Below, in pieces: positions 11,706-14,764 of a DNA stretch of 64,000 bases (the stretch's first letter is position 1; each line of letters opens with the position of its first letter). The position numbers and the translations under genes were made by a program. Origin of the DNA: Escherichia coli (GTDB lineage Bacteria; Pseudomonadota; Gammaproteobacteria; Enterobacterales; Enterobacteriaceae); assembly GCF_003334385.1 (NCBI RefSeq), contig NZ_QOWN01000020.1; one strand, given 5' to 3'. Under the pieces are notes generated by a model. The model was not told where the DNA came from and made no database searches. It saw nothing but the letters and a program-made list of their open reading frames with translations.

Positions 11706-12941
11706 ATGCTGCAACAGGTTCCAACGCGTGCTTTTCATGTGATGGCGAAACCGAGTGGTTCCGATTGTAATCTGAACTGTGACTACTGTTTTTATCTCGA
11801 AAAACAATCCCTTTACCGCGAAAAGCCAGTCACGCATATGGACGATGACACGCTGGAAGCGTATGTCCGTCACTATATCGCTGCCAGCGAACCGCAAAAC
11901 GAAGTGGCTTTTACCTGGCAGGGCGGCGAACCAACGCTACTCGGGCTGGAGTTTTACCGCCGTGCCGTAGCGCTACAGGCGAAATATGGTGCTGGCAGGA
12001 AGATAAGTAACAGCTTCCAGACTAACGGCGTGCTGCTGGATGACGAATGGTGCGCGTTTCTCGCGGAGCATCATTTTCTTGTTGGTTTATCGCTGGATGG
12101 CCCGCCTGAGATCCACAATCAATATCGCGTGACTAAAGGTGGCAGACCCACGCATAAGCTGGTGATGCGTGCCCTGACGTTCCTGCAAAAACATCATGTC
12201 GACTATAACGTGCTGGTCTGCGTTAATCGCACCAGCGCGCAGCAACCGTTGCAGGTATATGATTTTTTGTGCGATGCGGGAGTGGAATTCATCCAGTTTA
12301 TTCCGGTGGTCGAGCGCCTGGCTGATGAAACGGCTGCCCGCGAAGGACTGAAATTGCATGCGCCTGGTGATATTCAGGGTGAGCTAACGGAATGGTCTGT
12401 GCGCCCCGATGAATTTGGTGAATTTCTGGTGGCGATTTTTGACCACTGGATCAAACGCGACGTCGGCAAGATTTTCGTGATGAATATCGAATGGGCGTTT
12501 GCCAATTTTGTCGGTGCGCCGGGTGCGGTTTGCCATCATCAGCCAACCTGTGGGCGCTCGGTGATTGTTGAGCACAATGGCGACGTTTACGCCTGCGATC
12601 ACTATGTTTATCCGCAATATCGGCTGGGGAATATGCACCAGCAAACAATTGCAGAAATGATCGATTCCCCGCAACAGCAGGTGTTTGGTGAAGATAAATT
12701 TAAGCAGTTACCGGCGCAGTGTCGTAGTTGTAACGTGTTAAAAGCGTGCTGGGGAGGCTGCCCGAAACACCGCTTTATGCTCGATGCCAGCGGCAAGCCT
12801 GGGCTGAATTATTTATGTGCCGGGTATCAGCGTTATTTTCGCCATCTGCCGCCGTATCTTAAAGCAATGTCTGATTTGCTGGCGCATGGCCGCCCGGCCA
12901 GCGACATTATGCATGCGCATTTGCTGGTGGTGAGTAAGTAA
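11706..12941 (+). CDS. aslB: anaerobic sulfatase-maturating enzyme homolog (radical SAM)
   Basis: ORF with CNLNCDYC (CxxxCxxC) radical-SAM motif near N-terminus and additional Cys clusters; start trimmed to ATG at 11706 (MLQQVPTRAF...); adjacent to sulfatase gene. Confidence 0.9.
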   Translation: MLQQVPTRAFHVMAKPSGSDCNLNCDYCFYLEKQSLYREKPVTHMDDDTLEAYVRHYIAASEPQNEVAFTWQGGEPTLLGLEFYRRAVALQAKYGAGRKISNSFQTNGVLLDDEWCAFLAEHHFLVGLSLDGPPEIHNQYRVTKGGRPTHKLVMRALTFLQKHHVDYNVLVCVNRTSAQQPLQVYDFLCDAGVEFIQFIPVVERLADETAAREGLKLHAPGDIQGELTEWSVRPDEFGEFLVAIFDHWIKRDVGKIFVMNIEWAFANFVGAPGAVCHHQPTCGRSVIVEHNGDVYACDHYVYPQYRLGNMHQQTIAEMIDSPQQQVFGEDKFKQLPAQCRSCNVLKACWGGCPKHRFMLDASGKPGLNYLCAGYQRYFRHLPPYLKAMSDLLAHGRPASDIMHAHLLVVSK

Positions 12942-12975
12942 AAAAGCGGCCATTTTGTGGCCGCCTGCGGTTGAT

Positions 12976-13081
12976 TGCCGGATGCGGCGTAAACGCCTTA
13001 TCCGGCCTACATGATCGTGCAAATTCAATAAATTGCAGCGTTCTGTAGGCTGGATAAGATGCGTCAGCATCGCATCCGGCA
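12976..13081. repeat. BIME/REP element pair (two inverted REP units with central AATAAATTGCA IHF-like motif)
   Basis: TGCCGGATGCGGCGTAAACGCCTTATCCGGCCTAC and inverted GTAGGCTGGATAAGATGCGTCAGCATCGCATCCGGCA. Confidence 0.85.
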
Positions 13082-13108
13082 AAGGCAGATCTCAGCGATA
13101 GCGCCGGC

Positions 13109-14764
13109 TTAGTCAGATTTAATCTGCGCGCGTGGTGGATATTTTTTCAGGATCTCCATATACGCGTGCATTTCGGTCTGTAGCGGTACACCCATCGGAA
13201 TATGGCGCACGCCGATGGAGTCGCTTTCCTGCGGATCGGTGTAGAGGTTAAACACCGACGATCCCGCCGTTTGCATTACTGTGCCGGTGAATCCACCCTG
13301 ATATCCGCTCTGGGTATAAGCGTAAGGTTGCTGAATCAGGACGTGATACTTGAACTCATCCATACGCACAGCAGCGAGTTTACCGTTGAGGAAGTAGTGC
13401 TCGGCCTTACGGTTAGACTGACCATTTGTTCCCAGGAAGAAGGATGTCTGGTCCACACCATCGATAAAGGTGGTTTTCGGCACTAAATTCGCCACTTTCG
13501 CTCCAGGATGCCCTGCCAGATCCAGCGCGGTAGGGAAGAGATCTGCCAGATCGACAATACCGTCAGATTTACGCGGTTGGATCATCCCTTTCCAGTAAAC
13601 GAAAGTCGGTACGCGAACGCCGCCTTCCCAGGTCGAACCTTTCGCACCACGGAACGGGGTGCGTCCGTGCGGCGGTACTTCGGCTTCCGGTCCGTTATCG
13701 GAGGTAAAGACGATCAGCGTGTTATCAAGCTGACCGTTTTTCTCCAGTGTTTTATACAGATTAGCGAACACATCGTTCATCTCCACCATGCAGTCGCCAT
13801 ACGAGGTGCGTGCCGGAGAGCTACCCGCATATTTAGCGTTCGGGTAGTTATCGAAGTGACAGCCGCGAGTGCCGTAATAGAGGAAGAAAGGCTTATCGCT
13901 CTTCGCCATCTTGTCGAGGAACTTAACGCCATATTCCATCCAGCGTTGATCCAGATCTTCCATATATTTCGGCGTAATGTCGGCAATGGCCTGTTGTTCG
14001 CCGCCGCGCACTGCATGAACATCATCTTTGCTGAACGGTAATTGCTTGATGTATTCAGAACGGTCCGGACTCAGGGCCACTTCCGGATTGACGTGAACGT
14101 CGCGCCATTCGGTGTACATATCAGACACCGAGTTAAAGCCACGGAAATCATCAAAGCCAACGTTCTGCGGCTGCGACTCTTTGTTTTCCCCCATATGCCA
14201 TTTCCCGATAGCCTGGGTGACGTAACCTTGGTCGTGCAGCAATTGCGGCAGGGTGGTTAACCCTTGCAGACCTCCCGGTTGCCCGTACATTGGCGGCATC
14301 AGAATGCCGTGGTGGATGGAGTATTGTCCGGTGAGAATGGTGGCGCGGGTTGGGGAAGAGCTTGGTTGAGAATACGCCGACGTTAAAATCAGCCCCTGGC
14401 TGGCAACTGCATCGATATCTGGTGTAGGGTTACCCACCGCCACGCCGCCACCGTTAAAACCGACGTCCATCCAGCCCACATCGTCCAGCAGGAAGATAAC
14501 CACATTGGGCTTCTTACCGGTTTTTTTCTCAAGTTCTGCCAGCTTCTGCTGGGTTTCTTTATCCTGCGCCGGATGCTGCATTACTGGCATCATGTTGTCG
14601 GCAATAGTGGTCGCCGGTTTAACCAGATACTGGTTTGGGTGATCGTATCCGGCAAAGCCTTTGCGTGCGGTGGCAGTTGACGGGGTATCTGCTGCGCTGG
14701 CCATGAGAGGAAGAGCGGCGGCGACAGCAACAACAAGACGTTTGGGTGAAAACGAAATTTCCAT
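13109..14764 (-). CDS. aslA: arylsulfatase (Ser-type sulfatase, periplasmic)
   Basis: 551-aa ORF with N-terminal signal peptide and a sulfatase signature S-x-P-x-R (SSPTR) with Ser in the formylglycine position. Confidence 0.92.

What the first reader, a model, noticed from the sequence alone, without database searches (positions are those of the whole stretch)
11706..14764. Ser-type sulfatase (aslA) paired with a radical-SAM maturase homolog (aslB)
AslA carries the sulfatase signature with Ser rather than Cys in the formylglycine position (SSPTR), and the adjacent convergent gene aslB encodes a CxxxCxxC radical-SAM protein of the anaerobic sulfatase-maturating enzyme family. This pair is classically cryptic in E. 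coli (no demonstrated sulfatase activity; to my recollection AslB is not the functional maturase for Ser-type sulfatases). The substrate and the inducing condition remain poorly defined, making this the least-understood functional unit in the window.
Basis: partly seen in the sequence, partly recalled or inferred. Interest (0 to 1): 0.35.

Follow-up and report, generated by a model that had tools for sequence, protein, structure and literature searches.

The report
Known E. coli sulfatase–maturase gene pair
This is the well-known aslA/aslB pair of Escherichia coli: a secreted sulfatase whose active-site serine must first be converted to formylglycine, next to the radical-SAM enzyme predicted to do that; it was read correctly, both genes are intact, and the only open questions are its substrate and when it is switched on.

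Summary
The window is E. coli chromosome. aslB runs 11706-12941 (+) and aslA 13109-14764 (-); they converge on a hairpin plus two REP elements. AslA is a family S1 sulfatase with a Sec-type signal peptide. Ser136 (SSPTR) aligns with the catalytic Cys of solved sulfatases, and every metal-binding and catalytic residue is present. AslB passes the curated anaerobic sulfatase maturase model and keeps all 11 iron-sulfur cysteines of the solved clostridial enzyme, so neither refutation condition is met. The pair is already annotated and described, so novelty is nil. I added three things. (1) Both genes are under strong purifying selection (dN/dS 0.03 and 0.06), so they are not relics. (2) In AslA's orthologous family most members carry Cys; Ser is the minority state. 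Ser-type members nearly always have a convergent AslB orthologue, and two of six Cys-type members sit beside an FGE gene. (3) One REP-bounded 1.58 kb deletion has removed aslA in 1729 of 5426 complete E. coli genomes, while aslB is kept in nearly all. An apparent relaxation of selection on aslB in those genomes disappeared when hemY was used as a control.

The parts
11706..12941 (+). aslB coding sequence (411 aa), anaerobic sulfatase-maturating enzyme (radical SAM/SPASM)
   Evidence: ORF and RefSeq annotation; TIGR03942 516.8 bits, above the 349.45 cut-off; Pfam Radical_SAM and SPASM; E 1.2e-63 to anSMEcpe 4K36
11766..11789 (+). Codons for C21-x3-C25-x2-C28, the ligands of the radical-SAM [4Fe-4S] cluster
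   Evidence: Motif position; aligned with the CxxxCxxC motif of anSMEcpe
12531..12818 (+). SPASM region with eight auxiliary-cluster cysteines (C276, C282, C297, C339, C342, C348, C352, C371)
   Evidence: Cysteine positions; each aligns with a cysteine of 4K36; TIGR04085 matches residues 282-371
12944..12966 (.). G+C-rich hairpin directly after the aslB stop codon, flanked by A/T runs; candidate two-way terminator for the convergent genes
   Evidence: Terminator scan; sequence
12977..13082 (.). Two REP elements in inverted orientation (a BIME) in the aslB-aslA spacer; the second REP is the left edge of the common aslA deletion
   Evidence: Inverted repeats; five REP copies in the window against 0 expected by chance; deletion junction in E. 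coli W
13109..14764 (-). aslA coding sequence (551 aa), Ser-type family S1 sulfatase precursor
   Evidence: ORF and annotation; PF00884 E 2.4e-71; E 1.6e-100 to 7AJ0
14345..14359 (-). Codons for S136-S-P-T-R140; Ser136 (TCT, 14357-14359) is the residue to be converted to formylglycine
14693..14764 (-). Codons 1-24, a Sec-type signal peptide ([24 protein letters not shown]|AD) with no twin-arginine motif
   Evidence: Read directly from the translation; all orthologues have comparable N-terminal hydrophobic leaders. No predictor was run.
14765..15188 (.). 424-bp spacer, 32.5% G+C, between aslA and the divergent glmZ; presumed aslA promoter and regulatory region
   Evidence: G+C content; one promoter-like site on the - strand at 15062-15035; glmZ position. 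Function is inferred, not shown.
13047..14625 (.). Interval missing in 1729 of 5426 complete E. coli genomes (second REP plus aslA codons 47-551); present and intact in this window. Boundaries are good to a few bases.

Best explanation
The interval holds the E. coli aslB and aslA genes, a two-gene module for an oxygen-independent, formylglycine-dependent periplasmic sulfatase. Proposed mechanism, with the basis for each step. (1) AslA is made as a precursor with a Sec signal peptide (read from the sequence). (2) In the cytoplasm, before export and folding, AslB binds the S136-S-P-T-R segment. It cleaves S-adenosylmethionine reductively at its C21/C25/C28 cluster, removes a C-beta hydrogen from Ser136 with the 5'-deoxyadenosyl radical, and passes the electron out through its two auxiliary clusters, producing C-alpha-formylglycine. 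This is inferred from the solved and characterised homologues anSMEcpe and Klebsiella AtsB. (3) The precursor is exported and the leader is cut after Ala24 (inferred). (4) In the periplasm the hydrated formylglycine, with a divalent metal held by D94/D95/D356/N357 and with R140, K188, H190, H303 and K375, hydrolyses a sulfate ester (residues shown by alignment, chemistry inferred). The substrate is unknown. Gene neighbourhoods of orthologues point to sulfur scavenging from organic sulfate esters. E. coli pathogenesis papers suggest host sulfated glycoconjugates. Each gene has its own promoter. Expression is probably conditional (anaerobic or host-associated), which would explain the lack of activity in laboratory cultures (inferred).
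For: Identity: 100% match to annotated E. coli chromosomes. AslA: PF00884. Ser136 aligns with the catalytic Cys of 7AJ0 and with position 69 of ARSA, and the DD, GKWH, H303, DNG and K375 positions align with the ARSA catalytic set. All of these are invariant in 56 orthologues. AslB: passes the equivalog cut-off; all 3 + 8 cluster cysteines, plus the Cys-Asp pair (C297-D298) and the CFY motif, align with 4K36. Both genes are selected: aslA dN/dS 0.027 with dS up to 0.33, and SSSPTR invariant in 8 diverged E. coli alleles; aslB dN/dS 0.064 in genomes that carry aslA. Coupling: 6 of 7 Ser-type AslA orthologue contexts (E. coli, Uliginosibacterium, deltaproteobacterium Smac51 and three metagenomic contigs) have a convergent radical SAM/SPASM gene next to or one gene away from the sulfatase. 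In the two compared, that gene is 61-62% identical to AslB. Among 6 Cys-type contexts, 1 has a radical SAM/SPASM gene and 2 have an FGE gene. Sulfur context: cysteine-synthesis-type genes, a rhodanese and an SrpI-like gene flank the Uliginosibacterium pair; alkylsulfatase genes flank the Smac51 and Caballeronia orthologues.
Against: Nothing here shows expression, formylglycine formation or sulfatase activity. Papers I could read state that E. coli modifies only Cys-type heterologous sulfatases and that its own maturation machinery is unidentified (PMC6189696, PMC8379841). aslA has been deleted in 32% of complete genomes, so it is dispensable in a large part of the species. aslB is kept in those genomes, which a strictly dedicated maturase would not require. 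One Ser-type orthologue (P0023) has no maturase gene within 6 kb. The neighbourhood sample is small (13 contexts) and not corrected for phylogeny. No sigma-70-like promoter was found upstream of aslB at the scan's threshold.
Confidence: 0.78

Rival explanations
1. AslB has a role beyond, or other than, maturing AslA. For example, it might mature the second Ser-type sulfatase YdeN, a Cys-type sulfatase under anoxia, or a non-sulfatase substrate. The adjacency to aslA would then be only part of the story.
For: aslB is full length in 5425 of 5426 complete genomes, while aslA is reduced to a 139-nt stub in 1729. All 19 aslA-deleted genomes sampled keep an uninterrupted 411-codon aslB, in 11 haplotypes. 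E. coli also has ydeN, Ser-type (SGPSR), in 5323 of 5426 genomes. Close relatives of anSMEs in NCBIfam are peptide-modifying SPASM enzymes.
Against: ydeN has its own same-strand maturase gene ydeM. The convergent aslA-aslB layout is conserved across proteobacterial classes. Retention may simply mean the deletion is too young for aslB to have decayed. My test could not separate selection from youth, because hemY shows the same N:S pattern. Two aslA-deleted genomes carry substitutions of cluster-ligand cysteines (C297Y, C348S), which suggests inactivation is tolerated there, but each occurs in only one genome.
Confidence: 0.25
2. The pair is a silent evolutionary relic in E. coli. The reading frames are intact, but the genes are never productively expressed or matured and contribute nothing to fitness.
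For: The papers read describe E. coli's own sulfatase maturases as only putative and its ability to mature Ser-type sulfatases as unresolved (PMC6189696, PMC8379841). That E. coli shows no detectable sulfatase activity is my recollection of Benjdia 2007, which I could not open. aslA is lost in about a third of genomes. The upstream region is AT-rich, the kind of sequence often silenced (inference).
Against: dN/dS is 0.027 for aslA and 0.064 for aslB at synonymous divergence up to 0.33-0.38. The catalytic residues are invariant. No disrupted allele was found among 27 sampled genomes apart from the single shared deletion. aslA presence co-segregates with invasiveness, and an aslA mutant of a K1 strain is reported to be less invasive (PMC11879602, citing Hoffman 2000).
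Confidence: 0.08
3. AslA works without formylglycine, either as a low-activity hydrolase using Ser136 directly or through a non-enzymatic (binding or invasion) role. No maturase would then be needed.
For: Some S1-fold enzymes keep measurable activity when unmodified (choline sulfatase, PMC6189696). A Ser-type metagenomic sulfatase was active when made in E. coli without any added maturase (PMC8379841).
Against: The complete catalytic constellation, including the SxPxR recognition motif, is invariant across orthologues. Ser-type orthologues keep an AslB orthologue beside them, which would be unnecessary in this scenario.
Confidence: 0.05

Closest known systems
Klebsiella pneumoniae AtsA/AtsB (the reference Ser-type arylsulfatase with its radical-SAM maturase; from my own knowledge, and cited in PMC8379841 as Murooka 1990)
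   Same: A periplasmic Ser-type S1 sulfatase paired with an adjacent anSME-family radical SAM/SPASM gene, with maturation expected in the cytoplasm before Sec export.
   Different: atsB and atsA form one operon regulated by sulfur and tyramine, and activity has been demonstrated. aslA and aslB are convergent, separately transcribed, and no activity or inducing signal has been shown. I did not measure sequence identity to AtsA or AtsB.
Clostridium perfringens anSMEcpe (PDB 4K36-4K39)
   Same: E 1.2e-63 over the whole of AslB. The CxxxCxxC motif, all eight auxiliary-cluster cysteines and the Cys-Asp pair are conserved.
   Different: Its native substrate is a Cys-type sulfatase. AslB has an insertion of about 15 residues near position 205-220 and a C-terminal extension of about 25 residues.
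PsFucS1 of Pseudoalteromonas (PDB 7AJ0; SulfAtlas subfamily S1_13; PMC8484680)
   Same: The closest solved structure to AslA: E 1.6e-100, 39% identity over 483 aligned residues, alignment running end to end, calcium-type active site.
   Different: It is Cys-type (Cys111) with the motif C-T-S-S-R, marine, hexameric, and active on fucoidan oligosaccharides. At 39% identity, substrate specificity cannot be transferred to AslA. I did not test whether AslA belongs to S1_13.
E. coli YdeN/YdeM
   Same: The second Ser-type sulfatase (SGPSR) plus anSME pair in the same species. YdeM is 41% identical to AslB, and this pair is also uncharacterised.
   Different: The genes are on the same strand (ydeN then ydeM) next to the acid-response genes ydeO/safA/ydeP. 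The pair is present in 98% of genomes, against 68% for aslA.
Cys-type orthologues of AslA with an FGE partner (e.g. Caballeronia fortuita P0091, Chitiniphilus eburneus P0087)
   Same: 60-65% identical to AslA, with an identical catalytic residue set and the same SQPS-x-SPTR context.
   Different: They have Cys at the formylglycine position and a neighbouring FGE-sulfatase gene (PF03781), the oxygen-dependent maturase, instead of or in addition to an anSME.

Membership tests
Family S1 formylglycine-dependent sulfatases (Pfam PF00884) | Sulfatase catalytic domain | tested here: met
   PF00884 matches residues 86-418 over model positions 1-300 of 301, E 2.4e-71; 81 solved sulfatase sequences match at E <= 0.001
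Family S1 formylglycine-dependent sulfatases (Pfam PF00884) | (C/S)-x-(P/A)-x-R motif at the position of the catalytic formylglycine | tested here: met
   S136-S-P-T-R140 aligns with C-T-S-S-R of 7AJ0 and with position 69 of ARSA; the column is Cys or Ser in 56 of 56 orthologues
Family S1 formylglycine-dependent sulfatases (Pfam PF00884) | Metal-binding and catalytic residues (ARSA D29, D30, R73, K123, H125, H229, D281, N282, K302; numbering from my own knowledge) | tested here: met
   D94, D95, R140, K188, H190, H303, D356, N357 and K375 align with them and are invariant in alignment A5
Family S1 formylglycine-dependent sulfatases (Pfam PF00884) | Formylglycine actually present, and sulfate-ester hydrolysis | not testable with these tools
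   Needs mass spectrometry and enzyme assays on the protein
Ser-type (periplasmic, anSME-dependent) subclass of S1 sulfatases | Ser at the formylglycine position, an export signal, and an anSME gene in the genome | tested here: met
   Ser136; N-terminal Sec-like leader read from the sequence; aslB adjacent
SulfAtlas subfamily S1_13 | Falls in the S1_13 clade in the SulfAtlas classification | not tested
   The only support is that the best solved homologue, PsFucS1, is S1_13 (PMC8484680), at 39% identity. SulfAtlas is not available here.
NCBIfam arylsulfatase equivalogs (NF010322 and others) | Score above the curated cut-off | tested here: not met
   The best match is NF010322 at 106.9 bits against a cut-off of 481. 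AslA is therefore not a member of any curated arylsulfatase equivalog. 'Arylsulfatase' is a historical name, not a tested specificity.
Anaerobic sulfatase-maturating enzymes (anSME; NCBIfam TIGR03942) | Whole-protein score above the curated equivalog cut-off | tested here: met
   516.8 bits against 349.45, residues 11-390 on model positions 1-362 of 363
Anaerobic sulfatase-maturating enzymes (anSME; NCBIfam TIGR03942) | CxxxCxxC radical-SAM cluster motif | tested here: met
   C21, C25, C28; Pfam Radical_SAM E 2.3e-17
Anaerobic sulfatase-maturating enzymes (anSME; NCBIfam TIGR03942) | SPASM domain with the eight cysteines that hold two auxiliary [4Fe-4S] clusters | tested here: met
   C276, C282, C297, C339, C342, C348, C352 and C371 align one-to-one with the cysteines of 4K36; the cluster assignment of those cysteines is from my own knowledge of the structure. 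PF13186 E 2.6e-11; TIGR04085 66.4 bits against 27
Anaerobic sulfatase-maturating enzymes (anSME; NCBIfam TIGR03942) | Encoded next to a sulfatase gene that carries the recognition motif | tested here: met
   Convergent with aslA, 167 bp apart; the same layout occurs with 61-62% identical orthologues in two other proteobacterial classes
Anaerobic sulfatase-maturating enzymes (anSME; NCBIfam TIGR03942) | Converts Ser (or Cys) of the motif to formylglycine with SAM cleavage | not testable with these tools
   Needs anaerobic reconstitution and a peptide assay

The most novel reading that the evidence does not exclude
aslB is maintained by selection independently of aslA. It is intact in essentially every E. 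coli genome, including the roughly one third that lost aslA through a single REP-bounded deletion. AslB would then have a second client (YdeN, a Cys-type sulfatase under anoxia, or a non-sulfatase substrate), and presence or absence of aslA would mark a real ecological or pathogenic split within the species.
Probability: 0.25. Interest if true: 0.4.

Novelty: already known. Interest (0 to 1): 0.15.

Why it matters
The finding is a correct reading of two long-annotated E. coli genes, so it adds nothing new by itself. The pair does remain one of the few E. coli enzyme systems with a clear predicted chemistry but no known substrate, inducing condition or demonstrated activity. aslA is also widely scored as an invasion-associated virulence gene in genome surveys. 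The comparative results here make the open question easier to test. Both genes are under strong selection. The maturase travels with the Ser-type form of the sulfatase across bacterial classes. A natural aslA deletion exists in about a third of sequenced strains and can serve as a ready-made comparison group.

Tried and rejected
(1) Relaxed selection on aslB after loss of aslA. Variants seen only in aslA-deleted genomes are 11 nonsynonymous to 9 synonymous, against 24 to 95 for variants seen only in aslA-intact genomes (Fisher p = 0.002). This looked like decay. The same comparison on the last 207 codons of the neighbouring hemY gave 5:4 against 2:35. The excess is therefore the usual young-clade effect, and I rejected the claim.

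(2) Cluster-ligand substitutions C297Y and C348S in AslB from two aslA-deleted genomes. Each occurs in exactly one of 5426 genomes. They could be rare deleterious alleles or sequencing errors, and they are not evidence of systematic inactivation.

(3) Transferring the fucoidan specificity of PsFucS1 to AslA. I rejected this because identity is only 39% and the gene contexts of orthologues are not polysaccharide-utilisation loci.

(4) Recent horizontal acquisition. The G+C content of aslA (53.0%) and aslB (51.9%) matches the window (52.7%), and the locus is at the same site in all genomes examined.

(5) The primary papers (Hoffman 2000, PMC101739; Benjdia 2007, PubMed 17303125) are not in the held library. 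What they report is taken second-hand from papers that cite them, or from my memory, and is marked as such.

(6) Rfam found no RNA family in the aslB-aslA spacer.

(7) Loci fetched in parallel did not appear in the Python sandbox, so I passed sequences to it through DNA alignment.
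Full report
WHAT IS THERE. The window is Escherichia coli chromosome. The 4.5 kb around the finding is 100% identical to several complete genomes, and RefSeq annotates the same two genes there. aslB occupies 11706-12941 on the + strand (411 aa) with an AAGGAG ribosome-binding site 7 nt upstream. aslA occupies 13109-14764 on the - strand (551 aa). The finding's coordinates run exactly from one start codon to the other. The genes are convergent. The 167-bp spacer holds a G+C-rich hairpin directly after the aslB stop codon (12944-12966) and two REP elements in inverted orientation (12977-13010 and about 13046-13082). 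Upstream of aslB lies the argX-hisR-leuT-proM tRNA cluster with its terminator. Upstream of aslA is a 424-bp spacer of 32.5% G+C, followed by the divergent small RNA gene glmZ.

CHECKING THE TWO CLAIMS. AslA matches Pfam Sulfatase end to end (E 2.4e-71). The pattern S-x-P-x-R occurs twice, at residues 136 and 315, so the motif alone proves little. What decides is alignment to solved structures. Ser136 falls on the catalytic Cys of PsFucS1 (7AJ0) and on position 69 of human arylsulfatase A. The acidic metal ligands (D94, D95, D356, N357) and R140, K188, H190, H303 and K375 fall on the corresponding catalytic residues (ARSA numbering from my own knowledge). The N-terminus reads as a Sec-type leader with an Ala-x-Ala cleavage site and no twin arginine (read by eye, no predictor run). 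AslB scores 516.8 bits on the curated anaerobic sulfatase maturase model, whose cut-off is 349.45, and also passes the SPASM domain model. It matches Pfam Radical_SAM and SPASM. It aligns over its full length with the solved clostridial enzyme anSMEcpe. The CxxxCxxC motif and all eight further cysteines are conserved; in that structure they hold the two auxiliary clusters (cluster assignment from my own knowledge).

ARE THE GENES ALIVE? I compared alleles from diverged E. coli genomes. For aslA (8 alleles) mean dN/dS is 0.027, with synonymous divergence up to 0.33, and the SSSPTR segment never changes. For aslB in genomes that carry aslA, dN/dS is 0.064. These values indicate proteins under strong purifying selection, not relics.

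WHAT RELATIVES SAY ABOUT THE PAIRING. A search of the large protein collection found 3776 homologues at E <= 1e-30. Many are 60-87% identical, and they span Proteobacteria, Bacteroidota and Myxococcota. In an alignment of 56 of them, every catalytic residue is invariant, but the formylglycine column holds Cys in 41 and Ser in 15. The Ser forms are among E. coli's closest relatives, at 73% identity or more. AslA thus belongs to a Ser-type minority within a mostly Cys-type family.

I then examined gene neighbourhoods. Six of seven Ser-type contexts, counting E. coli, have a radical SAM/SPASM gene on the opposite strand just downstream, the same convergent layout. In a betaproteobacterium and a deltaproteobacterium that partner is 61-62% identical to AslB. 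Of six Cys-type contexts, four have no maturase gene nearby, one has an FGE gene, and one has both an FGE gene and a radical SAM/SPASM gene that is 46% identical to AslB. Because FGE needs oxygen and acts only on Cys (established biochemistry), this is the pattern expected if the AslB-type enzyme is the maturase of the Ser-type sulfatase. The sample is small (13 contexts, one-sided hypergeometric p about 0.025 by my own arithmetic) and is not corrected for shared ancestry. The papers I could read say only that E. coli matures Cys-type but not Ser-type heterologous sulfatases, that AslB and YdeM are putative maturases, and that a third system is suspected (PMC6189696, PMC8379841, both citing Benjdia 2007). 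None of this tests AslB on AslA.

SUBSTRATE. This remains unknown. The closest solved relative, PsFucS1, releases sulfate from fucoidan oligosaccharides (PMC8484680), but it is only 39% identical to AslA. Orthologue neighbourhoods contain alkylsulfatase genes, a rhodanese, cysteine-synthesis-type genes and an SrpI-like gene. That fits scavenging of sulfur from organic sulfate esters. E. coli pathogenesis papers instead link aslA to invasion of brain endothelial and intestinal epithelial cells, and speculate about host sulfated glycans or lipids (PMC11879602, PMC11954838, citing Hoffman 2000, which I could not open). AslA passes no curated arylsulfatase equivalog model, so its name should not be read as a specificity.

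POPULATION PICTURE. aslB is full length in 5425 of 5426 complete E. coli genomes. aslA is full length in only 3694. In 1729 genomes one identical junction joins the middle of the REP pair to codon 47 of aslA, removing about 1.58 kb. Carriers include strains W, 55989 and O111:H8. All 19 deletion genomes I sampled keep an uninterrupted aslB.

I tested whether aslB is decaying in those genomes. Variants private to the deletion group are enriched for amino-acid changes (11:9 against 24:95), and two genomes carry substitutions of cluster-ligand cysteines. However, the neighbouring gene hemY shows the same enrichment (5:4 against 2:35), and each cysteine substitution occurs in a single genome. The test therefore does not show decay. 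It remains open whether aslB persists because it has another client or because the deletion is young. E. coli also carries a second Ser-type sulfatase/maturase pair, ydeN-ydeM, in 98% of genomes.

VERDICT. This is a known, annotated, intact gene pair, so novelty is 'already known' and interest is low. The best-supported mechanism is oxygen-independent conversion of Ser136 of pre-AslA to formylglycine by AslB in the cytoplasm, followed by Sec export and periplasmic hydrolysis of an unidentified sulfate ester, under conditions not reproduced in routine culture. The identity of the genes is essentially certain. The AslB-to-AslA coupling is well supported by comparative evidence but unproven, and the substrate is open.

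Noticed in passing
window 15189-15395 (+): glmZ (SraJ) small RNA gene: Rfam RF00083, 218 bits, full length, with its own terminator at 15361-15390. It is divergent from aslA across a 424-bp spacer of 32.5% G+C.
   Followed up: partly
window 13047-14625; L002 4895-5139: One REP-bounded deletion of about 1.58 kb removes aslA codons 47-551 in 1729 of 5426 complete E. coli genomes (for example W, 55989, O111:H8). The junction is identical in all 19 genomes inspected, and aslB is retained. The window strain carries the intact allele.
   Followed up: yes
alignment A5 (AslA orthologues); loci L028-L037, L039, L040: Within the AslA orthologous family (60% identity or more), the formylglycine position is Cys in 41 of 56 sampled members and Ser in 15. 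Ser-type members have a convergent AslB orthologue in 6 of 7 contexts. Cys-type members have an FGE gene in 2 of 6 contexts and a radical SAM/SPASM gene in 1 of 6.
   Followed up: partly
L005 (NZ_CP096834.1) 2738-3435; L009 (NZ_CP170328.1) 2392-3089: IS1 is inserted between the aslA stub and hemY, in the glmZ neighbourhood. These are the same two genomes that carry the one-off AslB substitutions C297Y and C348S. I did not check whether glmZ is disrupted or whether the coincidence means anything.
   Followed up: no
L038 3840-6731 (E. coli K-12 ydeM-ydeN): A second Ser-type sulfatase (YdeN, motif SGPSR) with its own maturase (YdeM, 41% identical to AslB), arranged on the same strand next to ydeO/safA/ydeP. 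It is present at 80% coverage or more in 5323 of 5426 genomes.
   Followed up: partly
window 12977-13010, 29030-29063, 37208-37241, 56183-56216, 56282-56315: Five copies of the same 34-nt REP element in the window, against 0 expected by chance.
   Followed up: partly
window 16642-17877 (-), hemX: The hemX product has a long Ala-Pro dipeptide run near its C-terminus. The annotated hemX length differs between strains (1182 to 1248 nt), which suggests the repeat number varies.
   Followed up: no
L012 (O157:H7) 220-532; L015 (MINF_9A) 4471-5061: O157:H7 has an extra tRNA-Leu copy in the tRNA cluster upstream of aslB. Strain MINF_9A has an extra 591-nt hypothetical gene between aslA and hemY.
   Followed up: no
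window 11706-12941 and 13109-14764 compared with hemY 15443-16639: aslA and aslB are unusually diverged between E. coli lineages (nucleotide identity down to about 93% and 92%). The flanking HemY and ThrP proteins are identical in most of the same genomes. aslB also shows mosaic haplotypes that suggest recombination.
   Followed up: partly
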